From positions 1-64,000 of the IMG/VR virus record IMGVR_UViG_3300021091_000027: a DNA stretch of 64,000 bases; one strand, given 5' to 3'. The position numbers and the translations under genes are program-made. This document shows, one piece after another, positions 677 through 63,991 of the stretch (the first letter of the stretch is position 1; each line of letters starts with the position of its first letter). The notes under the pieces were generated by a model. It was not told where the DNA came from, did no database searches, and saw only the letters and a program-made list of their open reading frames with translations. The stretch comes from a virus.

Positions 677-1522
677 ATGATTGACCCTGTTAGACAACTC
701 TTGGTTAAGATGGCCTATACCCCAAATCCTTTTAGGGGCAATTTATATAATTCTGCTTATAAAGCGGAAAGTCCAGAACAATACGGACAGCTGGTCAGCA
801 GAGATATACAGACCTACGGACATTTGGCCCCAGGATCTGATGAATACAATATGACTATGCAAGAAAAGGGATTTACACCTGAATATATGCAGGGAATCTC
901 TTCAGCAGGACAAAGGGTGCTGCGCGCTGCAAATGATCCTGAATTTGTAAGAGGAATGCAGCAAGGTACCGCAAATATATCAGATCTATACAAAGACTTT
1001 CAAGGCTCCTCAGGCATTGCGAAAGCGCTTGGCGGATGGAGTAACGTGGCGGCCTATGGATTACGTAATCCGATAGATTCTGCTCAAGCTCTTTACGGTG
1101 CGGGAAGAGATTGGCTTACAAATTCTGACCAATCTTCAAAGCAATTTGGAGATAAGTTAATGTCAAGCATAGATATGAATTCCCCCTTAGCTCGTGCTGC
1201 TAAATCAAGAGGGGCCACAACATATCTTAATTCTAAAATTCAAGATATTTTTAGCGGGCTGGGAGGATTTGGAAAAGGTGTTGGAGGCGGGCTTAGTTTC
1301 TTACTAGGTCTTTTGTCAAAAATACCTGGATACGACACACTAGCAAACAAGCTGGTTGATTGGAGTGGGGGATTTAAACCTGGAGGTCAAAGAGCTTTGC
1401 CGCATTCGCCTTTTGCAGTCAAGGCTGGATCAGTTAGATTTATACAAGGCAAGCCTTATTCTCACTATGCCGTCACTTCAACTCAGTGCGGTTCTGAGGT
1501 GCTGACATGGAACCGACAGTAA
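677..1522 (+). CDS. hypothetical, putative internal virion protein (leader ending KMA; Gly-rich hydrophobic segment)
   Basis: N-terminus MIDPVRQLLVKMA; contains GLGGFGKGVGGGLSFLLGLL. Confidence 0.6.
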   Translation: MIDPVRQLLVKMAYTPNPFRGNLYNSAYKAESPEQYGQLVSRDIQTYGHLAPGSDEYNMTMQEKGFTPEYMQGISSAGQRVLRAANDPEFVRGMQQGTANISDLYKDFQGSSGIAKALGGWSNVAAYGLRNPIDSAQALYGAGRDWLTNSDQSSKQFGDKLMSSIDMNSPLARAAKSRGATTYLNSKIQDIFSGLGGFGKGVGGGLSFLLGLLSKIPGYDTLANKLVDWSGGFKPGGQRALPHSPFAVKAGSVRFIQGKPYSHYAVTSTQCGSEVLTWNRQ

Positions 1523-3366
1523 CAACCGTGGGACAACTGCTGATAAATTCTGCTCTTCCAGAAGACAGCAGAGACTATGGAAGAATCTGGGACAAGCTCT
1601 CTATGAGGAAATTTCTAACGGAAATGGCCTCTAAATTGACTCCCGATAAGTACAGGGAGATGGTTCAACAACTTACTTTAATTGGCTTGAAGAGTGCAAG
1701 ACAATCGTCTTTATCTAGTTTTAGTCTTGAAAGCCTTAAGCCACCAAAGGTTAAACGCGATATAACAAATGTACTAAGACAGGAAGTACGTCAGATTGTT
1801 AGGTCTGTAAAGGATCCTGCCCAAAGAAATGAAGCTATAGTGGATGTAGCTTTAAAGTATCAAAAAACTTTGGCAGATAAGGTGTATCAGGAGTTACTAC
1901 AAAACGATAATCCATTTGCTATGCATGTATATGCCGGAGCACGTGGAAATAAAGATCAGCTGGCTTCTATGATTGGCAGCGATCTTCTCTATAGTGATAA
2001 TAAAGGTCGCCCCGTTCCGATTCCTGTGCTGAATTCATATTCAGAGGGTATGGATCCCGTGGAGTACTGGGCAGGATCATATGGCGCTAGAGCAGGAGCT
2101 ATTGATACTAAATTGGCTGTAGGCGATGCTGGGTATTTTGCTAAACGTCTTACTGCCTCTGCACATAGGCTTGTTGTTACGGATGAGGACATTGAAGACG
2201 GCCAAGGATTTATAGTAGAAGTAAACGATCCAGACAATATAGGTGGAGTGCTTGCTAGAGATGAGGGGCAGTTTAAGAAAGGTACGTATGTGGATGCTGC
2301 CGTACTAAAGGCCTTGAACGTATCTGGCAAGAAGAACATTATGATCTACTCTCCTATCGCAGCCGTAAGTGGAATTGGCGGACTGCCCAGACTGGCTGCC
2401 GGAATAAGAGAACACGGTAAGCTTGCAGAAATAGGTATGAATGTAGGGATTACTGCTGCTCAGGCAATTGCAGAACCTATAAGCCAGGGCATGTTGAATT
2501 CCAAGCACTCAGGGGGAGTATCAAAAGGCAAAACAAAAAGAACTGTAACTGGCTTTAACTATTTAAATCAACTCATAGAAGTTCCAAAAACTTTTACAGA
2601 TGGAGCTCCGGTAACTAAAGCGGACGGCATTGTTGGGAAAGTAGAATCTGCTCCTCAAGGCGGAAACTATGTTTATGTAAATAATGAAAAATACTATGTT
2701 CCAGTAGAGCAATCAGTATCCGTTAGACAAGGTCAAACGTTAGAAGCTGGAGATGCCTTATCCGACGGTATAATTAATCCAAAGGATATTGCTGAGCTTA
2801 AAGGAATTGGAGAGGCTCGCAGACACTTTGTAAAACAATTTAAATCTGCTTTACAGGAGAATGGACTGCCGGTTCATCGTAGAAATGTCGAAGTAGTTGC
2901 AAGAGGTTTGATTAATCAAGTAGAACTGACTGAGTCCGATGTGGTAGAGGGAGCATATCCAGAAGACATAGTGAGTTATGACTACCTAGCTTCAAGATAT
3001 AAACCAAGACAAGGCTTTCAAACTGGAAGTCCTTCTAAATATCTAAATCATTATCTAGAAAAACCAATTTTGCACTATTCTATTGGAACTCGTATAACTC
3101 CCACTGTAGCCAAAGAGCTAAAAGAAAATGGATTCTCAGATGTGATCGTTCATAAAAATCCTCCTCCATTTAAACCAACCATGACTAGAGCTATGATGTC
3201 ATTGCTCGGAGATAGAGATTGGATGGTTCAACTTGGAGGATTTAATCTTAAAAAGACCTTTTTGGATAATATACAGCGAGGATCTACCTCCCAGATACAC
3301 GGCACATCCTGGATTCCAGCTTTGGCTACTGGAGAAATCTCAAAGGGTCCAAAAGGCACCTACTGA
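1507..3366 (+). CDS. rpoC: DNA-directed RNA polymerase beta' subunit, C-terminal half (split subunit)
   Basis: Collinear matches to bacterial beta': TTVGQLLIN (TTVGR); AGARGN (SGARGS); bridge helix EGMDPVEYWAGSYGARAGAIDTKLAVGDAGYFAKRL; trigger loop GITAAQAIAEPISQGMLNSKHSGG; SBHM-like GQTLEAGDALSDG; VHRRNVEVVARGL. There is no NADFDGD motif. Confidence 0.92.
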   Translation: MEPTVTTVGQLLINSALPEDSRDYGRIWDKLSMRKFLTEMASKLTPDKYREMVQQLTLIGLKSARQSSLSSFSLESLKPPKVKRDITNVLRQEVRQIVRSVKDPAQRNEAIVDVALKYQKTLADKVYQELLQNDNPFAMHVYAGARGNKDQLASMIGSDLLYSDNKGRPVPIPVLNSYSEGMDPVEYWAGSYGARAGAIDTKLAVGDAGYFAKRLTASAHRLVVTDEDIEDGQGFIVEVNDPDNIGGVLARDEGQFKKGTYVDAAVLKALNVSGKKNIMIYSPIAAVSGIGGLPRLAAGIREHGKLAEIGMNVGITAAQAIAEPISQGMLNSKHSGGVSKGKTKRTVTGFNYLNQLIEVPKTFTDGAPVTKADGIVGKVESAPQGGNYVYVNNEKYYVPVEQSVSVRQGQTLEAGDALSDGIINPKDIAELKGIGEARRHFVKQFKSALQENGLPVHRRNVEVVARGLINQVELTESDVVEGAYPEDIVSYDYLASRYKPRQGFQTGSPSKYLNHYLEKPILHYSIGTRITPTVAKELKENGFSDVIVHKNPPPFKPTMTRAMMSLLGDRDWMVQLGGFNLKKTFLDNIQRGSTSQIHGTSWIPALATGEISKGPKGTY

Positions 3367-9966: not shown

Positions 9967-11322
9967 ATGTTTATCAAAGCATTTAGTCCTGATCACTTTA
10001 ATCTAGGTAGTGACGCCCCGTTTGAGATTCTTAGATTTTCCTCAAAGGGTCTTGACTCTGGTCAGGAGAAGCGCGCTAATATGTTTTCCAAGTTGATTGA
10101 AGGATATGTTCCCTCAAAAGACAAGACGGCAGTTCACACGATAGCCATGACTTCTTCAGAGAAATTTGGATTTAATAGAAATGGCGACGGCTGGAAACGT
10201 GCTAATCTAATAAGAGACCATCCCACTTTTATTTCTCATGCAAAGGTGTTTCGCCACCACAAGAATACTCCATTAGATTCCTCTTTTGGAGTTATTAAAG
10301 CTGCTACATTCAACGACGACATGGACAGAGTTGAATTGTTAATGGAGCTGGACAACTCTAAGTGCGCCGAAGAACTGTCTTTGCTTGAGAGAAATGGTAG
10401 CTATCCTGTTTCCATGGCTTGCAAGATTTCACATGACGTATGCTCCATATGCTCAAATAAAGCAAAAACTCCAAAAGAGTATTGTTGGCATGTGAAAGAA
10501 GCGCTTGGCAAGATTATGGATGATGGTAAGATTGTTGGAGTCGACAACCCTCAATCCATATTTTTTGACATATCTAGAGTTATTCGCCCAGCCGATAGAG
10601 TCGCTTATACTTTAAAGAAAGCCTCTACCGGTATCAGCGGAGGAGCCGCTCTTGCAGAAGAGCTAGGATATTCTTTAAATACTTTAGACACAATAGAATC
10701 TACTTTGACCTGCAACTATAAGTCTGCAGAGAAAAAAAGAAAAATATTAGAAAAAATATCAAAAATGGAAAAAAGAATTGATGGCATTGCTCAACCAGCT
10801 GTCATTGATTCTCAAGAGGAGGTAGAGGAGGCTGTAAAAAAGCTTTCTTCTTTTATTCCGATCTATATGGACTCGGTGATGAGAGGGCTTAGCGATAATG
10901 GTATTGTCCTACGTCCATCTGAGTTTTATACCCTTATGACTGGAAATTCTTTGGGACCTACCCAAGCAATAAATTTTAATAAATCTGCAGTTGCCGAAGG
11001 AATAAGCCAATTTTCTTCAGAGGATCTGATTTTTAGTTCATTATATGAGCCGGCAAGCATGAAGATATCTGGCAAGATTGCAAATTTATGTGATGCTATC
11101 AGGCCCTATCGTAGTGTAACTATTCCATTAATGGGTAGAATTATTGGTACACAAATTAGAAAATCAAATCCAATTAAGCTATCTTCTGATTTAGATTCAT
11201 GTTGGTCTAAAGAATATGTTCGATATCAGCTTGAAACATATAAGTCCATCAAGGCCGCATCTTCCGCAGGCGACATTGATGATTTAGTCTTTTGCGGAAT
11301 TTGCCAAAATACTGTAGAATAA
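9967..11322 (+). CDS. prohead (capsid maturation) serine protease, clan SH/HK97-like, with Zn-finger insert
   Basis: NRNGD, FRHH (candidate catalytic His), VSMAC (candidate catalytic Ser), then CSICSN...YCWH. It lies directly upstream of the scaffold, cement and capsid genes. Confidence 0.75.
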   Translation: MFIKAFSPDHFNLGSDAPFEILRFSSKGLDSGQEKRANMFSKLIEGYVPSKDKTAVHTIAMTSSEKFGFNRNGDGWKRANLIRDHPTFISHAKVFRHHKNTPLDSSFGVIKAATFNDDMDRVELLMELDNSKCAEELSLLERNGSYPVSMACKISHDVCSICSNKAKTPKEYCWHVKEALGKIMDDGKIVGVDNPQSIFFDISRVIRPADRVAYTLKKASTGISGGAALAEELGYSLNTLDTIESTLTCNYKSAEKKRKILEKISKMEKRIDGIAQPAVIDSQEEVEEAVKKLSSFIPIYMDSVMRGLSDNGIVLRPSEFYTLMTGNSLGPTQAINFNKSAVAEGISQFSSEDLIFSSLYEPASMKISGKIANLCDAIRPYRSVTIPLMGRIIGTQIRKSNPIKLSSDLDSCWSKEYVRYQLETYKSIKAASSAGDIDDLVFCGICQNTVE

Positions 11323-14092: not shown

Positions 14093-15070
14093 ATGGCATT
14101 AGAACATCTCACAGATATGGAAAAAAGAGCGAACCAAGTTGTTCGTCAGCACCTTGATCAAATGGAGTTTAACCCCGAGTCCACCATCAAGGTCTCTCGG
14201 GCTACTTCAGACTACATCCGCATGAAGCTGCGTGAAGAGGGTTTCCTTCGTAAGATCCTTCCAGCACAGACAATTACCGGAGATGATCTCACCAAGCAAG
14301 TTTCCACCGACAAACCCTCCAAGGTTGTCGAACTAGAGCCAGATTCGCCTGGCGCTATGTCGATCCCCTTCGGCGAGTTTCCAAGCAGCACTTATATCTA
14401 CGGTAAGCGTTGGCTCGTAACCTTTAGCCGCATTGCTACTCCAATGTTCAGTAAGGACGTTGCAGAGCTGCACGACTATGATCTCGACATTCGTCAGGTC
14501 ATTAGCGATAATGCGCTCAAGGATCTACAGGCTGAGGAGGACGGCAAGTTCATTCAGACGATCAACTCGCTCCTCTCCAATGACACCATGAATTCTGAGC
14601 AGAATCTGCCCTACGGCCCAGGTGGTGCAAACATTAAACTTTGGAGGAATCTCTCTGGCGGTCTCACTCGTGAGAACGTCGTTGAAGCCAAGAAGCTAAT
14701 GATGGCTGCAAATGCTCGCCTTCGTCCTCAGACTGCCCTTGTCAACCAGAAGACTGCTCTTGAGTTCGAGAAGTGGACTCGTGAAGAGGTCGGCGGCGAT
14801 ATGGCGCAAGGTATCCTTGTTAACGGTTGGGCCAGCGAAGCCAACAAGTGGTGTGCCCTTAACTGGATCACCACCATCAAGGACGATCTCATCAAGGACA
14901 ACAGCATGTTCCTTTTTGCCGCACCAGAGTTCCTTGGCCGCCTTTATTTCCTTGAGGACACCACAATGTTCGTCAAGCGTGAAGGCCCAATGCTCAGCTG
15001 GTACGCATATGAAATGCTCGGCGGCGGCATTGCCAACGTTGCAGCATGCAGCAGAGTTGACTTTACATAA
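14093..15070 (+). CDS. major capsid protein (HK97-fold)
   Basis: 325 aa; CAGGAG RBS; strongest codon bias in the window; KLREEGFLRKILP..LQAEEDGKF..YAYEMLGGGIAN pattern; position after protease, scaffold and cement; followed by a hairpin. Confidence 0.8.
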   Translation: MALEHLTDMEKRANQVVRQHLDQMEFNPESTIKVSRATSDYIRMKLREEGFLRKILPAQTITGDDLTKQVSTDKPSKVVELEPDSPGAMSIPFGEFPSSTYIYGKRWLVTFSRIATPMFSKDVAELHDYDLDIRQVISDNALKDLQAEEDGKFIQTINSLLSNDTMNSEQNLPYGPGGANIKLWRNLSGGLTRENVVEAKKLMMAANARLRPQTALVNQKTALEFEKWTREEVGGDMAQGILVNGWASEANKWCALNWITTIKDDLIKDNSMFLFAAPEFLGRLYFLEDTTMFVKREGPMLSWYAYEMLGGGIANVAACSRVDFT

Positions 15071-54318: not shown

Positions 54319-55247
54319 GAGCAATTCATTCATATAAGTTTGATAAGTTAAGACCGCTATTAGAATCTATTGGCGGGGCGTCAGTGGTAAAGCCAATTAT
54401 AACCATGATGGCGCTTTCGGCAGTCAGTATACGCAAACATCATGATGACTTTGTCCTGATTACAGACGATATTGGAGCTGAACTTGCTAAAGCATGTAGT
54501 TTGCCTTACTCAAAGGTCGTTTCAGTTGGTTATGAGTTTGGTTCGCACGAATGTTTCTGGATTCACAGTAAGCTGCACACCTACGCAACAATAGATTGCC
54601 CATTTGTTCACTACGATATCGATTTATTTTTGTGGGATCCGCTTCCAAAAGAATTTTTAGATAACGATATATTTAACTTTTACTCAGAGGCCCACGTTTG
54701 GCCTAGATATGAACAGATCCTTGAAAATTTCATTGCCTCAGGTGTAAAGGTTCCACTTTACGATAAACTATACCCTGAGAATAAATCTCCATTAAATATG
54801 GCGATATTTGGAGGGCACGACATAAAAACCATTAAATCCTGTGGTCAAGAACTTTTAGATTTAATGGAAACTAATGATAGATTTTATAACAAGTCAGATG
54901 AGATAGTATACGCAATAGAAAATGGAATTTCCTATATAGAACAAGCGCTAAGTTCTTACATACTTCAGAGCAAACATAGAAAAAGAGTAGTGCCACTTCT
55001 AAAAGAGCATCAGGTATTATCCGGAAAAACCGTTCCAGGGATTAAGGTAACGCACTTGCACTCCTTGAAACAAGTAGCACAAGCCCAAGGAAAAATTAAT
55101 GAATTACAAGCAAAACTTGACAGTAAGTTGAAATATCTGGCTCCAGACGTACACTCTGCCGTAGCAAAGTTTACTAAAGTTAAAGTTAATATAGATGACA
55201 TGATAAAGGAGGCAAACTTAAATGATTCGAATCTCACCAATAAATAA
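54315..55247 (+). CDS. putative nucleotide-sugar glycosyltransferase (GT-A, DUF6734-like)
   Basis: LITDDIG; FWIHSKLHTY..PFVHYDIDLFLW (DxD); NMAIFGG; IEQ; THL. Confidence 0.65.
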   Translation: MRAIHSYKFDKLRPLLESIGGASVVKPIITMMALSAVSIRKHHDDFVLITDDIGAELAKACSLPYSKVVSVGYEFGSHECFWIHSKLHTYATIDCPFVHYDIDLFLWDPLPKEFLDNDIFNFYSEAHVWPRYEQILENFIASGVKVPLYDKLYPENKSPLNMAIFGGHDIKTIKSCGQELLDLMETNDRFYNKSDEIVYAIENGISYIEQALSSYILQSKHRKRVVPLLKEHQVLSGKTVPGIKVTHLHSLKQVAQAQGKINELQAKLDSKLKYLAPDVHSAVAKFTKVKVNIDDMIKEANLNDSNLTNK

Positions 55248-55497
55248 ACATGAACAGATTCAAGACGAGGGTCTCAGAGTATATATAGAGGGGGTTGCTC
55301 CATTGGCTCTCACCTCGCCAGAGGCTCAAAGGATGGTATTTAATTACGTAAAAGAAGCAGGTCTGAAAGAATATGGAATGAATAAGTTTGTAGCTATGGA
55401 GTCACGTAATCTCAGCAATAATGATTTATATCCTTATAAAGGATATTGGCTAATGCTTCCAAATCAGTGGAATCAAAAGAAGACAGTTAAAGTATGA
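55222..55497 (+). CDS. hypothetical protein
   Basis: 91-aa ORF overlapping its neighbours. Confidence 0.5.
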   Translation: MIRISPINKHEQIQDEGLRVYIEGVAPLALTSPEAQRMVFNYVKEAGLKEYGMNKFVAMESRNLSNNDLYPYKGYWLMLPNQWNQKKTVKV

Positions 55498-55784
55498 GTA
55501 CCACTTTAACCAACGCTGAACAAAAGATATTTGTACGGAAAAGCGAGTTCGCAGATAAACTAATACCCATATGTGAAGCCTTAAAGTTAGCAGGATTCGA
55601 AATTGCAACAATTGCAGATATTATGGAAAATCTGCAAAACGAAAAAGAACTTCCTGCTAAGTTTTCAATCATAAATAATAGATATCTCGTGTATAAGAAG
55701 GATTTGGTATACGATTTATATAAATCGACTGCAATTGAGCAGCCGGATGAACAGAAAAGAATGGCGATTATATTTTGGATTTAG
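55494..55784 (+). CDS. hypothetical protein
   Basis: 96-aa coupled ORF. Confidence 0.5.
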   Translation: MSTTLTNAEQKIFVRKSEFADKLIPICEALKLAGFEIATIADIMENLQNEKELPAKFSIINNRYLVYKKDLVYDLYKSTAIEQPDEQKRMAIIFWI

Positions 55785-55785
55785 C

Positions 55786-56094
55786 ATGGAAGTAAAGCTG
55801 CGCAACAATACTTGGAAAATAGTTAAAATGGATTTAGGGCCCTCTATAAGAGGAGAAATAGATCCACCGAGCTATGTAAATAAAAGCATAAGAATTTCAA
55901 CTAGGCTTAGAAAAAGTCAGGAGATTTTGGAGGTACTTCTTCATGAATGCCTGCACGGATGCTTTTGGGACATAGACGAGGAAGCTGTGGAAAGAGCGGC
56001 TTTCGATATCTCTAGAGCACTTTACAAACTAGGTGCAAGAGTAGACGCAAGCAAGCTATCTAAGAAAATAACAAATACTACTAGGGGCTCTTAA
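55786..56094 (+). CDS. small HEXXH zinc metallopeptidase-like protein
   Basis: EVLLHECLHG..DEEAVE. ATG 55786 is preferred over TTG 55735, which overlaps the upstream gene. Confidence 0.65.
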   Translation: MEVKLRNNTWKIVKMDLGPSIRGEIDPPSYVNKSIRISTRLRKSQEILEVLLHECLHGCFWDIDEEAVERAAFDISRALYKLGARVDASKLSKKITNTTRGS

Positions 56095-56146
56095 GGGCAA
56101 GCTAAGGCGGATGATTCGCCTTCCCCCCAATAAACGCCCCATACGT

Positions 56147-56184
56147 AACAAAACCCAGGGTTCATGGGCCCTGGGTTTTGTTTT
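56147..56184. terminator. bidirectional intrinsic terminator between convergent blocks
   Basis: Perfect 14-bp stem aacaaaacccaggg / ccctgggttttgtt with A and T tracts at the two ends. Confidence 0.8.
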
Positions 56185-56202
56185 AATATGTCTATTAAGT
56201 TT

Positions 56203-56778
56203 TTAGAGTAAACCTTTTTGAATTAGCCTTCTTTGAAAATCTCTTGCCAGCTGTTGTTTAAGCTCTGGGTCGGAGAACACCTCTACATCACCTAGATCTG
56301 CTCCAACCGGCAGGTTTTGCATCAAGTTTTCAATTTCCTTATTCTTTCTTACTTTCTTACCATAGCCGTACATTGCTCCAGCGCCGCCTCCCAGTAGAGC
56401 GCCTATAGCTGCGCCAAGTGGAGCATTAGAGCCTCTTAAAGCTCCGACGCTTCCGCCTAATCCTCCGCCCAATAAAGCTCCCAAGGCTCCTGCGCCCAAG
56501 CCTGCCCACGATGGACTGGATAGGCCTGAAGATACTGGGTCTGCTGGGGTGCTAAATAACATTGGCAAAATCTTGGCTTTAGCTTTGTCTATTTCATCAA
56601 TTTCGTCTTTAGTAAAGTATCTTTTGCAACCAAATCCGGGGGTGCACTTGATAGGAACATCTACTATGGATTCTGAAGATGAGATTTCGGCTTTTTTCTC
56701 GGAGATGTCCGCACAGCTTTCTTTAAGCCATCTTCTTAGATCTGCCTTCTTTAAATTAATGTATGCATCAAGATTCAT
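56203..56778 (-). CDS. glycine-zipper protein with KxA leader
   Basis: MNLDAYINLKKAD..EKKAE; GLGAGALGALLGGGLGGSVG..LGAAIGALLGGGAGAMYG. Confidence 0.65.
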   Translation of the reverse strand: MNLDAYINLKKADLRRWLKESCADISEKKAEISSSESIVDVPIKCTPGFGCKRYFTKDEIDEIDKAKAKILPMLFSTPADPVSSGLSSPSWAGLGAGALGALLGGGLGGSVGALRGSNAPLGAAIGALLGGGAGAMYGYGKKVRKNKEIENLMQNLPVGADLGDVEVFSDPELKQQLARDFQRRLIQKGLL

Positions 56779-57476
56779 TTAGACACTCCCTTTGCAAACC
56801 CTGATACAAACTTATTCCATGACCTAGAGTCCTTATTCATCAATGGCACGTTGTTAAGCTCCAGCATCATCTTGCTGGTCCTCCTATCGACATATGCCTG
56901 TACGTCATCTTTGAATTTAATTTGATTTTGGATCATTATTTGAAGTTGTACGGTATCTGTAGCGTAGGATTCCATATTTGCTACATAATCGTTTGGGCCC
57001 ATTTCCGCTACTTTTGAAAGCGATGGAGGCAAACGATAGAGGCCCAGCTCCTTACAGATCTCGCCTATATATCTACGAACTTCTGGACTGAGACGCTCAG
57101 GGGTGTTGGAGTCCAGCATAGTGAGCTCGGTAATAGCCCAAGCACATTCATATGGATCGGCTATGTCAAAGACGTCATAGCTCATAGGTGTTCCACTTAA
57201 AACATTGGCACAGTTCATAAAAGTGGACACATCTGTATGAACTAGGTCGGTCGTCAAAGAGTTCCAAAGTGCCCATATTTTATCGGTGTTCACATCAGGG
57301 ATATCAGATACTGAAAACCCCTCCTCAAGCTCCTGACGAAATGCCTGAGGGTCCATATCAAAGATCTCCTGACCGTAAGAGTCCAGAATCATAGTAAGCA
57401 GCACAGTGCCGACGGTATCCCGACTTTTCCACAGCTGATCGTACGCTTTAGATGCTGTTATGCTTTTAATTGGCAT
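56775..57476 (-). CDS. hypothetical protein
   Basis: 233-aa ORF coupled in the minus-strand operon. Confidence 0.6.
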   Translation of the reverse strand: MPIKSITASKAYDQLWKSRDTVGTVLLTMILDSYGQEIFDMDPQAFRQELEEGFSVSDIPDVNTDKIWALWNSLTTDLVHTDVSTFMNCANVLSGTPMSYDVFDIADPYECAWAITELTMLDSNTPERLSPEVRRYIGEICKELGLYRLPPSLSKVAEMGPNDYVANMESYATDTVQLQIMIQNQIKFKDDVQAYVDRRTSKMMLELNNVPLMNKDSRSWNKFVSGFAKGVSK

Positions 57477-57487
57477 TAGATTTCAGT

Positions 57488-58300
57488 TTATTCTTCTGCC
57501 TTTGCAAGGTTATCTGCGAATATGCCGGCGTTAGGATAAGCCTCGTTGATAAGTTTAGATTGCATCTCAATCTGCTTCTTCAGATCCTTCTTTGTATCAA
57601 GGATATGAGATATAGCTGGATTCTTATAGGTGCCAGTATATCTCTTTTTGGCGGCATCTGATAGCTGCTTGTACATCTTTGCAACAGCTTTGTAGTCGGC
57701 ACCTGGCGCTGCAACGCCTAAGGTGTGCTCCTTTATCAGAGTTTGAATCTGCTTAGCTATATTTGGGTTTTTAGATAGGCTATCAACTATATTCTTGTCC
57801 GAGGTGAATATCCTAGAAAGAAAGCCCATTTCCTTCTTTCTCTCTGCCAATAACTCATCCAGTCGCTTGTCTGCTTCAGATCTATCAAGTAAGGTTAGCG
57901 CTGCACTGCTTAGATTTTTACGTGAATCAGATGTTACCAATGGGTGTTGGCCAAGGCTTATTCCCGTTATTCCCAAAGCTCGTAAGTAAGCGATTGTACT
58001 CGCAGCTAATGCAGTAGCGGTTCCGGGACCAAAAGCTATATCCTTGTCCTTAAGCTTCTTTCCGTCTAGCATCCCCTTTCTACTGACACTCTTGGCCTGT
58101 CGTGCAGCATCGTTGATATTCATTGCTGCGAACTGCAAAACCGTCTTGTTGATGTCGTCGGCCGTCAGGTTTCTATTCTCATGCGGATGCGGAGTCATAC
58201 CTGCCATTCTGTCGTTCCAAAATGACATAAGATACTCCTCTTCTGATGGAATACTGTGTGTGGCAGCTAATTTTCTTAAATTATTTGCTACTTTAATCAT
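57488..58300 (-). CDS. hypothetical, putative internal virion protein with MIKVANNL leader
   Basis: MIKVANNLRKLAA. Confidence 0.6.
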   Translation of the reverse strand: MIKVANNLRKLAATHSIPSEEEYLMSFWNDRMAGMTPHPHENRNLTADDINKTVLQFAAMNINDAARQAKSVSRKGMLDGKKLKDKDIAFGPGTATALAASTIAYLRALGITGISLGQHPLVTSDSRKNLSSAALTLLDRSEADKRLDELLAERKKEMGFLSRIFTSDKNIVDSLSKNPNIAKQIQTLIKEHTLGVAAPGADYKAVAKMYKQLSDAAKKRYTGTYKNPAISHILDTKKDLKKQIEMQSKLINEAYPNAGIFADNLAKAEE

Positions 58301-58314
58301 AACTTATTTTTCTT

Positions 58315-58731
58315 TTATTTGTTCCCGGGTGTTTTCCCAGGATATAACGGACCTAACTCGGTCTCGACTGTGGTCGAACCTTCACCTTGAGATCTAGGGT
58401 TCCCGGGAATCGTTATTGTTGGATTGCCGTGTATGGGGATGTAATCATCCAGCAGGCGATTTTTAGCTTTAAGACCCCCGTACAGGCCTACTCCGCCACC
58501 CAGTCCGAGTCCGGCCAGGCCACCATAGCCGAGGCCTTTTAGAATCGACTTGCCTCTCAGCGCCTGAATCAAGCCGCCAATGGCAGAACCCCCCAGGGCC
58601 CCCAGACCGCCGCCGATGGCGGTGTTCGTATACGGCAGGATCTTGGCGAGATCTGCGAGCGTTCCACTCCACTGCAAACCGGCAGACTTGACAGAGACCA
58701 TACGTTGAAGATTATTTGCTACTTTAATCAT
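58315..58731 (-). CDS. glycine-zipper protein with MIKVANNL leader
   Basis: MIKVANNLQRMVSVKSAG; two Gly-zipper helices. Confidence 0.65.
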   Translation of the reverse strand: MIKVANNLQRMVSVKSAGLQWSGTLADLAKILPYTNTAIGGGLGALGGSAIGGLIQALRGKSILKGLGYGGLAGLGLGGGVGLYGGLKAKNRLLDDYIPIHGNPTITIPGNPRSQGEGSTTVETELGPLYPGKTPGNK

Positions 58732-58733
58732 AA

Positions 58734-60080
58734 TTACATTTCTTGGGCTGTGCCTATTTGAGAGTTAAGAGAGTTCTGTTCGTGCTGTTGTCTTGCTTGT
58801 CGAGCCTTAACCGCAGCGAGTCCAGCCTGAGCATCGAGAGCATCTAGTTTAGCTTGTTCTTTCTTTTCGTTCATGCGAGCCTCAAAAGAAGAATCGTCTT
58901 CGCCGGGCATTGGATTAGTGTCATCCATAAGCATTTGTTGCATAGCGGGCATCATGCCCATATTGGCTTCTTTAAATAAACGACTCAGTAGATCGTCGGT
59001 TGTTTCTGGTATATAGCCGGAGGTCTTAACAGCTTCTTCAAAGCGGCGGGCTTCTGGTTTAGGCATAGTGGGCAGAATTTCTGCAGCCTTGTTGCGGTCT
59101 ACGTTAAAGCCATCTGTCTGGCAGTAAGACAAAAAATCGTCTCCAGCAATCTTAAGGCCTTTTTCAAGTTGATGGTCGCTGATCTTGGTGAGATCTACTG
59201 GGATGCCAGTAGTTAAATGAACAATTCCATCAGCTACTGATGCAGCTTTAGTAAGGCTGACCCTAAAGCATACATCAATGGGGTGCTGCAGAGCCGAACC
59301 CCACTTTGAATTTAAGCCGTGTTTAATATCAAAAGCCTCTAGGCAGTTACAAATTATATCCCCCGCGTTACACAATTCAAATGGATGGGTGCTTAAATCA
59401 TTGGCTACTTTTAATAACTCATCTTCAAGTTCTGACCACTTAACGGTAGGTATGCTACTTAATCTGTCTGTGATAGCAACAGCTATTTTGCAGTTTATAT
59501 TTGAATAAGTATTTGAATTAGCAACTCTGTCAATATAGGCAGCAGCTTTTACGTTTAATTTAAAAATGTCTGCCCTTGCCTGCAACTTAGAGGCTGTTTT
59601 CCTTTGAACATCTGTAAGAAACTTATACCTATTTTCATATAGCCACTCTGCGCTGGCCGTAGCTGCTTCTTTGGTGTGATCTGGACATCTTTCTATCTTT
59701 GCACCTTTATGCTCAAATGTCATAGCATACGATACTGGAATAATTTGTTGTTCAAATGCAGATTTGATAGTTTCTACATCTTCTAAGATGCCCCAAACTC
59801 TTGCTGCATTTAATAATTTTACTTCAGCTTGTTTCCCTATCGGTGAAGTGCTACACTGGTTGCCGTAGAAATAAAGAGCAGAACACCAGCAATCAGATTT
59901 ACTGTCGAGGGCAAATTTCTTGTTTACTGTGTCCGCAAAGCATTTAGAACTCTTTATAGCAGCGGCGTCTTTAGTAAGAACGCCTGCAGACTTAACATAT
60001 TCAGGCATTGCCACTTGTTGTATGAGCGCATTATAGTACTTTTTAGAGACGTCATCAGTTATGTCAATCCAGCGAATCAT
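58734..60080 (-). CDS. KxA-rich hypothetical protein
   Basis: VKSAG, GKQAE, RKTAS, LKVAN, TKAAS, FKEAN; upstream GAAGGA RBS and TATAAT on the minus strand. Confidence 0.7.
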   Translation of the reverse strand: MIRWIDITDDVSKKYYNALIQQVAMPEYVKSAGVLTKDAAAIKSSKCFADTVNKKFALDSKSDCWCSALYFYGNQCSTSPIGKQAEVKLLNAARVWGILEDVETIKSAFEQQIIPVSYAMTFEHKGAKIERCPDHTKEAATASAEWLYENRYKFLTDVQRKTASKLQARADIFKLNVKAAAYIDRVANSNTYSNINCKIAVAITDRLSSIPTVKWSELEDELLKVANDLSTHPFELCNAGDIICNCLEAFDIKHGLNSKWGSALQHPIDVCFRVSLTKAASVADGIVHLTTGIPVDLTKISDHQLEKGLKIAGDDFLSYCQTDGFNVDRNKAAEILPTMPKPEARRFEEAVKTSGYIPETTDDLLSRLFKEANMGMMPAMQQMLMDDTNPMPGEDDSSFEARMNEKKEQAKLDALDAQAGLAAVKARQARQQHEQNSLNSQIGTAQEM

Positions 60081-62733
60081 AGATGGTGTTCCTTCGGAAA
60101 AGTTCTACTCGGCCTTCCATTATACAAAAATTCTGAAACTTTTGGGCTACGACGATATTGCCAAACCTGGCAGTTATGTTAGATGCATTAAGTGTAAAAC
60201 TGCAAATATGTACGTTTCGGCGTTAATTCCATTTGGCGGATGGATGTACTGCGATAAATGTAAACTTTCATGTGAAGGCCTTCGCCTGTACGGCCAGGCG
60301 TACAAGATCTTAAATCCAGAAGAATTAGTACATAAAATTGCAGAAGAGCTAAAAATAAAAGATCTGTTAATGGAAGATTTAATTAGTTATTCTACATTTT
60401 ATCAAAGGTATTACAATAAAGTATTGAAGGTGTGGGAAATCGCCAGAAACAACATGTTTCCAACCGCTAATAGATTTGCTACAGGCAGACTTAGCGAACT
60501 TAATCTTTGGGTAAGTCAGGAGACCTATAATCGAGGATTTACAGATTGGTTCGGATATGCCCATAAACATGAAATAGAGGAGCTGCTGGAAGATAAAATC
60601 CATGGATTTGGAAAAGCTACAGAAGGGCTAATAGTTACTCCTTTTTACTTAAACCCTGGATTTATTTCAGGATTTGGATTTATAGGAAATAAAGACCAGC
60701 TTAATTATTTAAACGTCTTAAGTGGGCACTATCCAGGATACTGCGGCTTAAATTCTTGTCATAGAGACCCCTCTGCAGAGGTCTATGTCTTAGATCACCC
60801 CCTTCAAGCAGCGAGAATAGTCCAAAAATGTACGATAGAGCGTTATAATAAATTGTCTGTGGTGGCCAAGTCCCCAATAGGTCAATTAGATCCACTGTTC
60901 TTACCTAAGCCAACAATCGTTTGGACGGACGCCCCAGATACCGCATTTTTAAAAACTTGTATAAAGTCTAAAAACTTTAAAATAATGCTAGATGATACTC
61001 CGTATATTTGGAGGCCTGCTGAGAAAACATCAAAGTTATGGATGGGTAATTTAATGCCTACGATCCATAAACATATATCTGAAAATAATTTAATCAATCC
61101 TTTGGATTTTCTCACTACAGAACTTATCACAATGGGGGTTGTAAACGCTAGGAATGTCGTAAAAGCTATGGAGCTTTCGACATTTCAAAAGAACCTCATA
61201 CTTGCTTCGTGCTCAAATACGATACGAGAAGAGCTTGAGGATATTCTTGAGAATGTGGCAACCTCTCAACTAGTAATAATAGATAAAAAAATAGTATTTG
61301 AAAAAGATGGAAAACTGTGGATGCAGGGTTCCAGGGAAATTCCAGATGAACTCATATGCAATGCTACAGTGAGAATCACTAATATATGCAGATCAAAACA
61401 AGATGGAAAGGCGTCTTTGTTTGGGAGATTTACATTTGAAGGCAAAGAAGTGGATTTTCAGATGGACGAAGAACTCCTGGAATCCGATCCTGCAAAAGCT
61501 CTTGCATTAATTTCTGTCAATGCAGGCATATCAAAGCATCCATTTTTGCTCGATTCAATGTCTAAAAAGTATTTAGACATAATATTGAGACTTAGTTCAC
61601 CAGAGGTGCATGCTGTGCAGAACTACGTTGGCTATGACTTTGATACCGGTAGATTCAATATACCTAGAATGTCGATAGATTCGCACCAGATAAGAGTCGG
61701 AGTTCCATTCGTAATGGATGACGTGGAGCCGCCCTGTGCATCCGTAATGATGGATCCCGGCATAGCCATAGACTCAATAGCCAGTTTATTTGATTATGGG
61801 CCAGAAACAGCGGCATATATGGCAGGAATGGCCTCCATGATTTCTGCTATACATTCGGTCATCAACGAATCTTCGAGAACAAATACCTTGTTTGGGGGTA
61901 GCAAAGGATCCTTGGCAGAATATATATTTGACGTAATCAGGATGGATTTAGGCCTGAAGGCCACCACTTTGAACAACAAAGATGATATGGAGTCTGCTCA
62001 CTCCTTAGCCACTATACACCACGTACCTGTAGCCATAGATGGCAATAGATCCAAGCCCAAGCTTTTGGCTCAGTGGCTGGAGGGACAAGGCCTAAACAGC
62101 ATGGTTGTCGTTAATCCTATGATGGCGTCGGCCCTAGCTGCTGATAAGGATTGGGCATTTGTGCGAGCAGATGTGCCGTTCTCATATGAAACAAAGGCTT
62201 TATTGAAAAGTGAAAATGCATTTCCTTTTCTCATGCAGTATTCTCTTACAGTAAAGCATAATGGACCACATAGCTTTTTAGATAACCTAAAGTATTTGGC
62301 TAATTCTCTAAACAAACCCGCACGAGTAATAGAGGCCGCAAAGGCTATGGTTTCCACAAAAGGTTACATAAATAGCTCTTCAGCAGCCGCACACTTAATA
62401 AACTTTATACATGAGGGTGTCGAAAACGGCATGTTCAAGACCTTTACTGGGGAAAGCACTAAGAAGCGGTATGTGATATTAAAAAATCCAATGGAAGACA
62501 TTGTGGCAATAGATTTAGCTAATTTGTGGGGTCAGATGAGGTATTACAACATACCTGTAGTGGCTTGGGAAGCAGCTATTTTACATTTAAAAGACCTTGG
62601 AGCAAAAAGTATGACCAAAAATGGAGTATCCTTATTGGTATTACCTAAGCCCACATGGAATACCCTTGTGTCGTCAATAAAGAGATTAAAAAGCCTTAGA
62701 AAAGCGGCTTTGATGAATCTATTTAACAACTAA
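60061..62733 (+). CDS. Zn-finger protein, possible primase/helicase-related (DUF927-like) replication protein
   Basis: N-terminal CIKC..CDKC. Size and layout resemble phage primase-helicases, but no intact Walker A or TOPRIM motif was seen. Confidence 0.45.
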   Translation: MSIQRIIDGVPSEKFYSAFHYTKILKLLGYDDIAKPGSYVRCIKCKTANMYVSALIPFGGWMYCDKCKLSCEGLRLYGQAYKILNPEELVHKIAEELKIKDLLMEDLISYSTFYQRYYNKVLKVWEIARNNMFPTANRFATGRLSELNLWVSQETYNRGFTDWFGYAHKHEIEELLEDKIHGFGKATEGLIVTPFYLNPGFISGFGFIGNKDQLNYLNVLSGHYPGYCGLNSCHRDPSAEVYVLDHPLQAARIVQKCTIERYNKLSVVAKSPIGQLDPLFLPKPTIVWTDAPDTAFLKTCIKSKNFKIMLDDTPYIWRPAEKTSKLWMGNLMPTIHKHISENNLINPLDFLTTELITMGVVNARNVVKAMELSTFQKNLILASCSNTIREELEDILENVATSQLVIIDKKIVFEKDGKLWMQGSREIPDELICNATVRITNICRSKQDGKASLFGRFTFEGKEVDFQMDEELLESDPAKALALISVNAGISKHPFLLDSMSKKYLDIILRLSSPEVHAVQNYVGYDFDTGRFNIPRMSIDSHQIRVGVPFVMDDVEPPCASVMMDPGIAIDSIASLFDYGPETAAYMAGMASMISAIHSVINESSRTNTLFGGSKGSLAEYIFDVIRMDLGLKATTLNNKDDMESAHSLATIHHVPVAIDGNRSKPKLLAQWLEGQGLNSMVVVNPMMASALAADKDWAFVRADVPFSYETKALLKSENAFPFLMQYSLTVKHNGPHSFLDNLKYLANSLNKPARVIEAAKAMVSTKGYINSSSAAAHLINFIHEGVENGMFKTFTGESTKKRYVILKNPMEDIVAIDLANLWGQMRYYNIPVVAWEAAILHLKDLGAKSMTKNGVSLLVLPKPTWNTLVSSIKRLKSLRKAALMNLFNN

Positions 62734-62848
62734 TAATGTGTTAAAATAATATAACGGTTGCTAACTCTATATTAGCAGAAAAATGTAGGCTAAAATAGCC
62801 TTATTAATATGTTAAAATACTTTAGTACCTATTTGCTACTAAAGCGCA

Positions 62849-62896
62849 CTTTTTCTATCTTATTACAGGTTTATACATATAATAAGATAGAAAAAG
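62849..62896. repeat. perfect 17-bp AT-rich inverted repeat
   Basis: ctttttctatcttatta-N14-taataagatagaaaaag between convergent genes. Confidence 0.85.
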
Positions 62897-62941
62897 GCGT
62901 ACTGCCCTGATTTAAACTACTTGTTTTTTCAGCCTTAGCTA

Positions 62942-63991
62942 TTAGTCAAGATCGGTATTATTGTAGTAGGCCGATGGATTACTCATGTGTATGTGCTCGT
63001 CTCCATCCAATACTTCGTCCATAAGGTTTGGTATGAGCTCTGGGTATCTTCTCCACAAGGTTATTACAGCAAATGCTACGGCATGTAGGAAATCGTCTGG
63101 CATTCCAGGATTTCTACGGATGTATCTTCGCTCTGTGCCAAACATACTTTCACTACTTTCTTCATAAACAGCCAAAAAATGGTCCATTATGTTCTGGCCC
63201 ACTGAGTCAACCATGCTGTCATACTGGGGAAATCGTATGTTTTTGTTCTTAATTGCCAGGCATACCGCCGCTATAACTTTACTTTTGTCCAAATTGTAAT
63301 AGCTAGTTGGATTTATACTCGTAGGGGGTACGAATTGCAGCATGGATTTTATACTTCCGCTGGCTGCATATCTGCAGTTTATGAGTCTAGAGTCCGGAAC
63401 TCCGATGCTTCTCATGATGCTAAGCCTTACTTCTCCTGCAACTGCAACGTCATGGGCTATGGTGGTGCATTTAAATTCATTGGAGATTTCTACAATCTCT
63501 TTGGTTTCGAGCACCGAGTCCATCATTGCAGGAAATACATGGCCAAATACGATATCTATGTTTCCATCTGGCATGTAGCAAGCCACTGCAGCAGCTGTCA
63601 TTGATTGAAATCGACTTCCTTTTCCTCCCCAATCCACCCCTAGCACTCTGTCTACGTATTTTAAGACCTGAGAAGCATTTTCCTTAGAGTTGGCAGGTAA
63701 AACTCCAGCGGCCTTTAGCTCACTCTGACTCACCAACCTTTGGCCCTCATCACACGCCTCTCCAAGAACTTCATTGATAAAAACAGCCGGAGCCACCAAC
63801 TCTCTTTTTAAAAGCAATGATTTCCAATTTTTGGGGTTTGCATAATGAACTGGGGCTATGACTTGAGGAACGTGGTAGCTCGGAAAGTTATTAGACTTTT
63901 CTTTATATTTATGAACCCAGAATCCCTTTTCAGGTTGAAGTAGTTTATGACATTTGGCACAGCACAATCCTTCGGGACGAATCATTTCCAT
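62942..63991 (-). CDS. terminase large subunit, GpA-like nuclease half (N-terminus outside window)
   Basis: CAKC..GFWV, SYHVPQ, FINEVLGEA, LGVDWG (RNase H-like Asp), PDDFLHA. Confidence 0.8.
   Translation of the reverse strand: MEMIRPEGLCCAKCHKLLQPEKGFWVHKYKEKSNNFPSYHVPQVIAPVHYANPKNWKSLLLKRELVAPAVFINEVLGEACDEGQRLVSQSELKAAGVLPANSKENASQVLKYVDRVLGVDWGGKGSRFQSMTAAAVACYMPDGNIDIVFGHVFPAMMDSVLETKEIVEISNEFKCTTIAHDVAVAGEVRLSIMRSIGVPDSRLINCRYAASGSIKSMLQFVPPTSINPTSYYNLDKSKVIAAVCLAIKNKNIRFPQYDSMVDSVGQNIMDHFLAVYEESSESMFGTERRYIRRNPGMPDDFLHAVAFAVITLWRRYPELIPNLMDEVLDGDEHIHMSNPSAYYNNTDLD

What the first reader, a model, noticed from the sequence alone, without database searches (positions are those of the whole stretch)
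58280..58733. Identical 23-bp leader (MIKVANNL) grafted on two unrelated adjacent genes
Seen: attatttgctactttaatcataa occurs at 58280-58302 and 58711-58733, covering the start and first codons of both genes. The gene bodies are unrelated, and the body of 58315 is visibly more GC-rich than its leader. Known: T4 internal proteins share a ~10-aa capsid targeting sequence. Inference: a portable targeting-tag cassette that recruits new cargo into the head.
Basis: partly seen in the sequence, partly recalled or inferred. Interest (0 to 1): 0.75.

Follow-up and report, generated by a model that had tools for sequence, protein, structure and literature searches.

The report
Shared leader peptide on phage cargo
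Two neighbouring genes of an uncultured large freshwater phage begin with the same 16-residue peptide; in related phages this peptide heads at least 17 unrelated small proteins and ends at the probable cutting site of the capsid-maturation protease, so it is most likely a tag that loads exchangeable cargo proteins into the phage head, as the T4 capsid targeting sequence does.

Summary
The 23-bp repeat is exact, occurs only twice in the 111-kb contig, and covers the start of two adjacent minus-strand genes of 138 aa and 270 aa. Their bodies show no homology, even by profile comparison.

The conserved unit is a peptide, not DNA. The consensus is MIKVANN[LI]xxM[LV]xKxA, and its codons vary synonymously between genomes. 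In the relatives sampled it heads 33 distinct proteins in at least 17 body clusters, up to six per contig. They lie in variable loci, inside the head module, and next to a polymerase gene whose counterparts are virion proteins in the cultured relative Arash.

The phage encodes a prohead protease with the T4 gp21/herpes assemblin fold (Z 9.4). K-x-A is about twofold enriched in the head module and in this operon, but not in tail or early genes. K-x-[AS] ends the leader in 32 of 33 proteins, and K-x-A is about twofold depleted in the cargo bodies.

Best reading (about 0.6): a cleavable capsid-targeting propeptide on exchangeable head cargo, analogous to the T4 internal-protein CTS and the identical N-termini of SPN3US gp53/gp54, but with a different sequence and cut site. 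Packaging and cleavage are inferred, not shown.

Earlier first-reader notes on this same genome flagged the leader and K-x-A. The two look-ups I ran returned nothing on other DNA.

The parts
58684..58733 (-). Leader of the 138-aa gene: TT + codons 1-16 (MIKVANNLQRMVSVKS). K15-S16-A17 is the putative cleavage motif just after it.
58315..58731 (-). 138-aa glycine-zipper cargo gene. It has relatives in related phages: a 107-aa protein in L004 (84% identical) and a 118-aa protein in L003.
58253..58302 (-). Leader of the 270-aa gene: TT + codons 1-16 (MIKVANNLRKLAATHS). K10-L11-A12 is its only K-x-A besides K3-V4-A5.
57488..58300 (-). 270-aa soluble cargo gene, nearly an orphan. A distant homologue, P0003, also starts MIKVA. 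In L003 it is replaced by an in-frame 35-aa remnant that keeps the leader and the C-terminus.
58734..60080 (-). Conserved 448-aa gene directly upstream; its stop lies 2 nt before the leader ATG. It carries 15 K-x-A motifs against 4.3 expected. Distant relatives carry DUF6582. The fold is unmatched in PDB. It is a candidate processed head-core protein.
56775..57476 (-). Conserved 233-aa gene that closes the variable slot. Function unknown.
56203..56778 (-). 191-aa glycine-zipper gene. It is an N-terminally shortened member of a 303-366-aa family (DUF5872 + glycine zipper) that elsewhere carries a diverged leader (MIYFSNNL, MISISHNI). This copy has no leader.
9967..11322 (+). Prohead protease, 451 aa. 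Residues 51-207 have the T4 gp21/herpes assemblin fold. The disordered N-terminus ends in a conserved KRA.
14093..15070 (+). Major capsid protein, homologous to the annotated MCP gp226 of Salmonella phage Arash. Its N-terminus contains DMEKRA-N.
1507..3366 (+). RNA polymerase beta-prime C-terminal half, encoded inside the head module. The homologue in phage Arash (gp216) was detected in virions.

Best explanation
The shared sequence encodes a 16-residue N-terminal leader, consensus MIKVANN[L/I]xxM[L/V]xKxA. Its hydrophobic residues are spaced for an amphipathic helix. It most likely acts as a capsid-targeting propeptide.

Proposed mechanism, all steps inferred:
1. Late in infection the leader docks the protein that carries it onto the scaffold/core of the assembling prohead.
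2. The phage's gp21/assemblin-fold prohead protease (window 9967-11322) cuts at the K-x-A (sometimes K-x-S) that ends the leader.
3. The mature cargo stays in the head, and I presume it is ejected into the host with the DNA.

Because only the leader is needed, bodies can be swapped, duplicated or deleted. This gives variable loci of accessory cargo, of which the 138-aa glycine-zipper protein and the 270-aa protein are this phage's pair.

Shown here: the peptide-level conservation, the diversity of bodies, the protease fold, and the K-x-A statistics. Inferred: docking, cleavage position, packaging and ejection.
For: (1) Portable tag. Relatives hold 33 distinct proteins with the leader, in at least 17 BLASTP body clusters. 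Conservation is above 3 bits (near 3 at position 4) at positions 1-8, about 2-3 bits at positions 9-16, and at background from position 17.

(2) Peptide-level selection. Synonymous codon changes are frequent: 869 synonymous against 986 non-synonymous codon differences over all pairs, and 30 different DNA versions.

(3) Lineage specificity. A degenerate DNA pattern for the leader found 17 stretches in the whole of IMG/VR; those I examined lie in this phage lineage.

(4) Variable slot. Between the conserved 448-aa and 233-aa genes lie 0-3 leader genes. In L003 (93% nt identical flank) identity drops exactly at the end of the leader. There the 270-aa gene is reduced to leader plus C-terminus.

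(5) Head context. In the complete 174.5-kb relative G001, a leader gene (192 aa) sits inside the head module, four genes from the protease. Two more follow the RNA polymerase beta/beta-prime-N gene. The cultured relative Arash carries these polymerase subunits and the protease homologue in its virions (PMC10585845).

(6) Protease. The AF2 model's best structural matches are T4 gp21 (Z 9.4, rmsd 2.7 A over 124 residues), VZV protease (Z 7.3) and HCMV protease (Z 5.7). There is also a PHROG head-maturation-protease hit.

(7) K-x-A distribution in this genome, observed/expected from composition:
- head module 2.09
- this minus-strand operon 2.06
- tail genes 0.80
- early genes 0.78
- reversed control A-x-K 0.75-0.93 in these four sets
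Fisher tests give p = 3e-6 for the head module and p = 0.006 for the operon.

(8) Leader end and cargo bodies. 32 of 33 leaders end in K-x-[AS] at residues 9-21. Cargo bodies hold 19 K-x-A against 39 expected and 38 A-x-K. This fits cargo that is cut once and must otherwise survive the protease.

(9) Breadth. In 72 distant head modules with the same protease family, N-terminal K-x-A outnumbers A-x-K by 733 to 252. Two other lineages have their own shared leaders ending in K-x-A, in L065 and L068.

(10) Precedent. T4 internal proteins share only a CTS (PMC3012670). SPN3US gp53 and gp54 share identical 15-residue N-termini that carry the protease motif (PMC5694885).
Against: - There is no virion proteome, N-terminal sequence or expression data for this lineage. 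Packaging and cleavage are unobserved.
- K-x-A was defined after looking at the sequences. Orthologues are not independent, so the p-values are optimistic.
- The baseline observed/expected in tail and early genes is already 0.8. Against that baseline the depletion in cargo bodies is only modestly significant (about 19 against 31).
- Many K-x-A sites lie in folded domains and cannot all be cut.
- In some relatives leader genes sit beside a secreted lysozyme and a spanin-like pair, which suggests a lysis or envelope context.
- Members of the long DUF5872 family lack the leader in this window and in L006, so the leader is not indispensable for every family.
- Glycine-zipper, membrane-like proteins are unusual head cargo.
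- The known gp21-type phage proteases cut after Glu, not Ala (PMC5694885).
Confidence: 0.6

Rival explanations
1. The leader is a conserved N-terminal interaction or assembly peptide with a role unrelated to the capsid. It might bind a dedicated partner, such as the co-located conserved 448-aa or 233-aa protein, a chaperone or a host factor. The genes would be a fast-diverging paralogue family that kept only its N-terminus.
For: - The leader genes are always flanked by the same two conserved genes of unknown function in the main locus.
- The heptad-like hydrophobic spacing suits helix-helix binding.
- Several body clusters are glycine-zipper proteins that could be very diverged paralogues (clustering without SEG).
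- SPN3US gp53 and gp54 are paralogues that kept identical N-termini (PMC5694885).
Against: - Leader genes also occur at three other loci without the 448-aa and 233-aa genes.
- The bodies range from glycine-zipper to Pro/Gln-rich to helical soluble proteins, with no profile similarity.
- This reading does not explain why the leader ends in the head-enriched K-x-A motif, or why that motif is depleted in the bodies.
Confidence: 0.2
2. The leader is a signal tied to the cell envelope or lysis, for example membrane targeting, timing of holin-like proteins, or superinfection exclusion. It would not be a capsid tag.
For: - In L020, L029 and L030, up to six leader genes lie between a signal-peptide lysozyme (Pfam Destabilase, E = 5e-10) and a pair that looks like an i-spanin (N-terminal TM) and an o-spanin (lipobox LTGC).
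- Many bodies are glycine-zipper, membrane-like proteins.
Against: - The leader is not hydrophobic enough for a signal peptide and has no lipobox or twin-arginine motif.
- Many bodies are soluble, including the 270-aa protein and the Pro/Gln-rich family.
- Other leader genes lie in the head module and beside RNA polymerase genes whose Arash counterparts are virion proteins.
- The spanin and holin assignments rest on my reading of the sequences only. PHROG and Pfam gave no functional name for that pair.
Confidence: 0.12
3. The 23-bp identity marks a nucleotide-level element at the starts of the two genes: a shared translation-initiation region, a regulatory RNA or protein binding site, or a recombination hotspot.
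For: - The two copies in the window are identical, including 2 nt upstream of the ATG.
- The leader is AT-rich (GC 0.33), which favours open initiation regions.
- Mosaic breakpoints between the window and L003 fall at the leader.
Against: - Across genomes the DNA varies at synonymous sites while the peptide is kept: 30 DNA versions of 34, and even a GTG start.
- Upstream regions differ between copies.
- Given the peptide and the observed codon preferences, my own estimate is that identical codons at positions 2-7 have a probability of roughly 6% for a random pair, and more within one genome. The exact identity therefore needs no special mechanism.
- Leader-homology recombination may still help cassette exchange as a side effect.
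Confidence: 0.05

Closest known systems
Capsid targeting sequence (CTS) of phage T4 internal proteins (IPI, IPII, IPIII, Alt)
   Same: A short N-terminal peptide (10-20 residues) is the only thing shared by a highly diverse set of head-packaged accessory proteins. It directs them to the scaffolding core and is removed by the gp21 prohead protease (PMC3012670, PMC5694885). Here too there is a short shared N-terminal peptide, diverse bodies, variable gene content between close relatives, and a gp21-fold protease in the genome.
   Different: - There is no sequence similarity.
- The leader ends in K-x-A or K-x-S rather than the Glu-terminated motif after which T4 and phiKZ-type proteases cut (PMC5694885).
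- There are many more body families, at least 17, spread over at least four loci.
- Many cargoes are glycine-zipper proteins.
- Packaging and cleavage are untested here.
N-terminal propeptides of ejection-protein paralogues in giant phages (SPN3US gp53/gp54; phiKZ gp93 family)
   Same: Two head proteins that are otherwise extensively diverged have identical 15-residue N-termini containing the protease cleavage motif. The phage packages a multisubunit virion RNA polymerase and many ejection proteins (PMC5694885). The present lineage also carries a split RNA polymerase gene set. Its counterparts in the cultured relative Arash are virion proteins (PMC10585845).
   Different: - The SPN3US proteins are recognisable paralogues with propeptides of about 125 residues and A-x-E sites.
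- Here the bodies show no detectable homology (hhalign probability 0.09%), the leader is 16 residues, and the motif is K-x-A.
Herpesvirus assemblin cleavage after alanine (established knowledge, not tested here)
   Same: Assemblin shares the fold of the protease modelled here (VZV protease Z 7.3, HCMV protease Z 5.7). This shows that the fold can have a small P1 pocket.
   Different: The host domain differs. A required Lys at P3 is not known for assemblin, and the specificity of the phage enzyme is only inferred from motif statistics.
Encapsulin cargo-loading peptides (established knowledge, not tested here)
   Same: A short terminal peptide is sufficient to load diverse cargo into an HK97-fold shell.
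   Different: These peptides are usually C-terminal and not cleaved, the compartment is not a virus, and there is no sequence relation.

Membership tests
CTS-type capsid-targeting propeptide (T4 internal-protein type) | A short N-terminal peptide shared by otherwise unrelated proteins of one phage lineage | tested here: met
   33 distinct proteins in at least 17 body clusters. Conservation is confined to residues 1-16. The bodies of the two window genes are unrelated.
CTS-type capsid-targeting propeptide (T4 internal-protein type) | The phage encodes a gp21/assemblin-type prohead protease | tested here: met
   The model of window 9967-11322 matches T4 gp21 (5jbl_A) at Z 9.4, rmsd 2.7 A over 124 residues, followed by the VZV and HCMV proteases. 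PHROG head maturation protease hit, E = 5.6e-6.
CTS-type capsid-targeting propeptide (T4 internal-protein type) | The leader ends at the protease's cleavage motif and is removed | tested here: inconclusive
   32 of 33 leaders end in K-x-[AS]. K-x-A is about 2.1-fold enriched in the head module and this operon and depleted in cargo bodies. No cleavage data exist.
CTS-type capsid-targeting propeptide (T4 internal-protein type) | Cleavage C-terminal to Glu, as in the T4, phiKZ and SPN3US motifs | tested here: not met
   No conserved Glu-terminated motif. Glu at position 13 occurs in only 35% of the cluster representatives. The conserved end is K-x-A or K-x-S.
CTS-type capsid-targeting propeptide (T4 internal-protein type) | Tagged proteins are present inside purified heads, and the tag is sufficient to package a reporter | not testable with these tools
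   The lineage is uncultured. Only context is available: a leader gene lies inside the head module of G001, and Arash virions hold the homologous polymerase and protease.
Hyperplastic accessory-gene locus (T4-type HPR) | Gene content varies between close relatives while the flanks are conserved | tested here: met
   0-3 leader genes lie between the conserved 448-aa and 233-aa genes in 17 loci. L003 (93% nt identity) lacks the 270-aa body.
Hyperplastic accessory-gene locus (T4-type HPR) | Shuffling mediated by promoter/stem-loop cassettes (PeSLs) | tested here: inconclusive
   Promoter-like and terminator-like sites in 55000-63000 are no more frequent than in shuffles. The breakpoints seen lie at the leader itself. 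The scan does not cover phage-specific promoters.

The most novel reading that the evidence does not exclude
A large, mostly uncultured clade of roughly 150-210-kb phages shares a gp21/assemblin-fold prohead protease that cuts after K-x-A rather than after Glu. At least some of its members, including Arash, carry a virion RNA polymerase. Each lineage in the clade has evolved its own short N-terminal address peptide ending in that site: MIKVANN...KxA here, MNHLxYLIKxA and MTRYEQGFLTKCA elsewhere. Any protein that acquires the peptide is loaded into the head and released by one cut, while cargo bodies are purged of K-x-A. The result is a modular, rapidly exchanging arsenal of injected proteins, including membrane-active glycine-zipper proteins.
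Probability: 0.35. Interest if true: 0.72.

Novelty: new variant of a known kind. Interest (0 to 1): 0.6.

Why it matters
- If the reading is right, the leader would label which proteins an uncultured phage lineage carries in its head and, presumably, delivers into the host. These are typically counter-defence or take-over proteins that cannot be recognised by homology.
- The reading predicts a new cleavage specificity (after K-x-A) for a widespread gp21/assemblin-fold protease family. This can be tested in the cultured Salmonella phage Arash, mycobacteriophage cluster C or Bacillus phage G.
- It would provide a 16-residue tag that could be tested for packaging foreign proteins, as the T4 CTS has been used.
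- Motif enrichment in scaffold and core proteins, combined with depletion in cargo bodies, offers a way to infer protease sites and head cargo from sequence alone.

Tried and rejected
- PHROG and Pfam scans of the two leader genes, their neighbours and ten cargo bodies from relatives gave no functional name. The only hits were weak Gly-zipper_YMGG matches and DUF5872.
- blastn of the locus and tblastn of the 448-aa and 233-aa proteins against 50,697 cultured phage records found nothing.
- Word-indexed and exhaustive HMMER searches with the 270-aa protein found only itself, a fragment, one 32%-identical homologue and one spurious repeat protein.
- The 448-aa protein model (pLDDT 78.8) had no PDB match by Foldseek, and in BFVD it matched only uncharacterised viral proteins. 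A profile search against PDB sequences found nothing significant.
- The protein atlas gave no usable lead for the 448-aa or the 270-aa protein.
- The sigma-70 promoter and terminator scan of 55-63 kb was no better than shuffles.
- Rejected: a DNA-level cassette or RNA element, because of the synonymous variation.
- Rejected: simple duplication of homologous genes.
- Rejected: foreign origin inferred from GC alone.

Full report
**1. The observation**

The 23-mer occurs exactly twice in the window, at 58280-58302 and 58711-58733. No further copy with up to three mismatches was found, and none is expected in shuffles. The whole 111,051-bp contig, an IMG/VR virus record estimated 62% complete, also holds only these two copies.

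On the minus strand each copy reads TT-ATG-ATT-AAA-GTA-GCA-AAT-AAT. The two copies open adjacent ORFs: 58731..58315 (138 aa) and 58300..57488 (270 aa). The eighth residue is Leu in both, but from different codons. Protein similarity continues to residue 16 and then stops. A scan of every start codon in the genome found no third gene with this N-terminus.

The bodies are unrelated. BLASTP gives nothing beyond the leader, and hhalign of body-only profiles gives probability 0.09%.

That core is 51% Gly+Ala. Its GC3 (0.60) lies above its neighbours (0.36-0.46) but resembles that of the capsid gene (0.58). The contrast therefore does not prove a graft.

**2. What relatives show**

The 270-aa protein is nearly an orphan. 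The conserved 448-aa gene just upstream recovered 17 related viral loci.

- In these loci the slot between the 448-aa gene and a conserved 233-aa gene holds zero to three genes. All begin MIKVA[N/S/T/D]N[L/I], and their bodies are 97 to 301 aa long.
- The gene after the 233-aa gene carries a diverged version (MIYFSNNL, MIRISNNL, MISISHNI, MTISNNNF). In this window that gene (56203-56778) is N-terminally shortened and lacks the leader.
- A degenerate DNA pattern for the leader, run over the whole of IMG/VR, hit 17 stretches. Those I examined lie in this lineage, and the hits revealed further loci with up to six leader genes in a row, two of them with GTG starts.
- A profile of the leader found six copies in a complete 174.5-kb relative, G001.

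In total there are 33 distinct leader proteins, falling into 17 body clusters (23 with low-complexity filtering). Using one representative per cluster:
- positions 1-8 carry above 3 bits (near 3 at position 4)
- positions 9-16 carry about 2-3 bits
- positions 17 onwards are at background

The consensus is MIKVANN[L/I]QRM[L/V]EKQA, with hydrophobic residues spaced as in an amphipathic helix.

**3. Peptide, not DNA**

Between genomes the leader codons vary synonymously (ATT/ATC/ATA, AAA/AAG, GTA/GTT, GCA/GCC/GCG/GCT, AAT/AAC). There are 30 different 24-nt versions among 34 proteins, and the upstream regions differ. The exact 23-bp identity in the window therefore follows from a conserved peptide plus AT-rich codon preference. 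It is not a DNA cassette or an RNA element.

**4. The locus is plastic and the leader is the joint**

L003 is 93% identical to the window through the 448-aa gene. The high identity ends at window 58682, which is the end of the leader. L003 then has a 21-codon insertion and a more diverged body (82.5% identity).

The 270-aa gene is reduced in L003 to an in-frame 35-aa ORF. It keeps the first 19 residues (97% nt identity) and the last 15. A distant homologue of the 270-aa body, P0003 (32% identity), also starts MIKVA.

**5. Link to the head**

The window's first 16 kb is a head module. It contains:
- the RNA polymerase beta-prime C-terminal half (1507-3366; Pfam Rpb1 domains 4 and 5)
- a 711-aa structural protein
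- a protease (9967-11322)
- an acidic scaffold-like protein
- the major capsid protein (14093-15070)

This module is syntenic with gp216-gp226 of Salmonella phage Arash. In Arash, mass spectrometry of purified particles detected the polymerase beta and beta-prime subunits, the protease homologue and its neighbours (PMC10585845).

The protease model has the T4 gp21 fold (5jbl_A, Z 9.4, rmsd 2.7 A over 124 residues). The next-best matches are the VZV protease (Z 7.3) and the HCMV protease (Z 5.7). Unrelated folds follow at Z 4.9 or less.

In G001 a leader gene (192 aa, MIKIANNVHTMLLKQA...) sits inside the head module, between the orthologues of window genes 4699-6834 and 6834-7730. Two more follow the polymerase beta/beta-prime-N fusion gene. 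The capsid proteins of these relatives are 91-96% identical to the window's. The extra loci therefore probably exist in the missing part of this genome as well.

**6. A candidate cleavage motif**

Earlier first-reader notes on this genome pointed to K-x-A but had not computed any enrichment. I tested it against the reversed motif A-x-K as a composition-matched control.

| Gene set in this genome | K-x-A observed | K-x-A expected | Observed/expected | A-x-K observed/expected |
|---|---|---|---|---|
| Head module | 69 | 33.0 | 2.09 | 0.76 |
| Minus-strand operon | 22 | 10.7 | 2.06 | 0.75 |
| Tail genes | 41 | 51.1 | 0.80 | 0.86 |
| Early genes | 55 | 70.7 | 0.78 | 0.93 |
| Other genes | 13 | 19.5 | 0.67 | 1.13 |

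Fisher tests against the rest of the genome give p = 3e-6 for the head module and p = 0.006 for the operon.

- The 448-aa protein alone has 15 sites against 4.3 expected. The 711-aa and 428-aa proteins and the protease each have 11, and the scaffold-like protein has 13.
- K-x-A falls within the first 36 residues in 8 of 19 head-module proteins, against 17% expected. These include the MCP (DMEKRA-N), the scaffold-like protein (LTQKRA-E) and the protease (QEKRA-N). In the protease the motif sits at the end of a disordered N-terminus, and its Lys is nearly invariant across homologues down to 27% identity.
- The leader ends in K-x-[AS] in 32 of 33 proteins.
- The cargo bodies contain only 19 K-x-A against 39 expected and 38 A-x-K. 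The 270-aa body has none against 3.4 expected.
- In 72 distant head modules with the same protease family, N-terminal K-x-A outnumbers A-x-K by 733 to 252, and in the protein bodies by 3855 to 2116.
- Two such lineages have their own shared N-termini ending in K-x-A: L065 (MNHLxYLIKxA) and L068 (MTRYEQGFLTKCAEYGID).
- Arash shows the same motif near the N-termini of gp220, gp222, gp223 and the MCP.

Caveats: the motif was chosen after inspection, orthologues are not independent, and no cleavage has been observed.

**7. Interpretation**

The simplest reading that fits all of this is a cleavable capsid-targeting leader on exchangeable head cargo. The leader would dock to the prohead core and be removed at K-x-A by the gp21-fold protease. 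The cargo would survive because it lacks further sites. I give this about 0.6.

The rivals are:
- a non-capsid partner-binding peptide on diverged paralogues (0.2)
- an envelope or lysis signal (0.12), suggested by loci next to a secreted Destabilase-family lysozyme and a spanin-like pair
- a nucleotide-level element (0.05), contradicted by the synonymous variation

**8. Comparison with known systems**

It works like the T4 CTS, where diverse internal proteins share only the CTS (PMC3012670). It also resembles the identical 15-residue N-termini of SPN3US gp53 and gp54, which carry the protease motif (PMC5694885).

It is not a sequence member of either. There is no similarity, and the Glu-terminated cleavage motif is not met. 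Cutting after Ala is known for the homologous herpesvirus assemblins; this is established knowledge that was not tested here.

The finding is therefore a new variant of a known kind. It is notable for the number of cargo families, for the several loci, for the glycine-zipper cargo, and for the predicted new protease specificity.

**9. Limits**

- The functions of the cargo proteins and of the 448-aa and 233-aa genes remain unknown.
- The host is unknown.

Noticed in passing
L020:1831-2283, L029:1292-1717 and 2931-3326, L021:4297-4983 and 6152-6682, L038:5721-6248: A second shared N-terminus, M-x-P-Y-x-H/Q...Y/F-K-Q-A, heads several glycine-zipper proteins that are interleaved with the MIKVANN genes. 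It also ends in K-Q-A.
   Followed up: partly
L003:6733-6840: An in-frame 35-aa mini-ORF is all that remains of the 270-aa gene. It consists of the leader (19 aa) fused to the last 15 residues. This could be a deletion relic or a leader-only landing pad.
   Followed up: yes
window 56203-56778 (-): The 191-aa gene is a shortened member of a 303-366-aa family (DUF5872 Cys-rich modules plus a C-terminal glycine zipper). The family carries a diverged leader in relatives; here and in L006 the leader and N-terminal modules are missing.
   Followed up: partly
window 5-448 (+) and 11350-12948 (+); L051, L098, L099, L115: A PPMDPAMMGGA-type repeat occurs in the first ORF of the window. A related Met/Pro/Gly/Ala-rich stretch lies in the C-terminal part of the scaffold-like protein. 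The repeat recurs in distant head modules with the same protease family.
   Followed up: no
window 58734-60080 (-): The 448-aa protein has an invariant P-E/D-Y-V/I-K-x-A near residue 26-32, conserved down to 23%-identical DUF6582-bearing homologues of about 350 aa. Some homologues are annotated as starting at that Met-Pro.
   Followed up: partly
L038:8000-11446 (-), L039:4-4449 (+); window 1507-3366 (+): The multisubunit RNA polymerase is split unusually. One gene fuses beta (Rpb2 domains 3 and 6) to the N-terminal half of beta-prime (Rpb1 domains 1 and 2). The beta-prime C-terminal half is a separate gene inside the head module.
   Followed up: partly
L020:467-886, 4764-5204, 5216-5527: A signal-peptide lysozyme of the Destabilase family and an adjacent pair that looks like an i-spanin (N-terminal TM) and an o-spanin (lipobox LTGC) lie within a run of leader genes.
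   Followed up: partly
P0146, P0155 (protease homologues, 716-727 aa): Some homologues of the prohead protease carry Hint/intein domains (PF07591, PF13403, PF14890). This indicates intein insertions in a capsid protease.
   Followed up: no
L065:9348 and 13560; L068:205 and 1982: Other phage lineages with the same protease family have their own pairs of different ORFs with shared N-termini: MNHLxYLIKxA and MTRYEQGFLTKCAEYGID.
   Followed up: partly
window 60061-60080: The 448-aa gene (minus strand) and the 890-aa gene (plus strand) overlap by 20 bp at their starts. Each gene's promoter must therefore lie inside the other's coding region.
   Followed up: no
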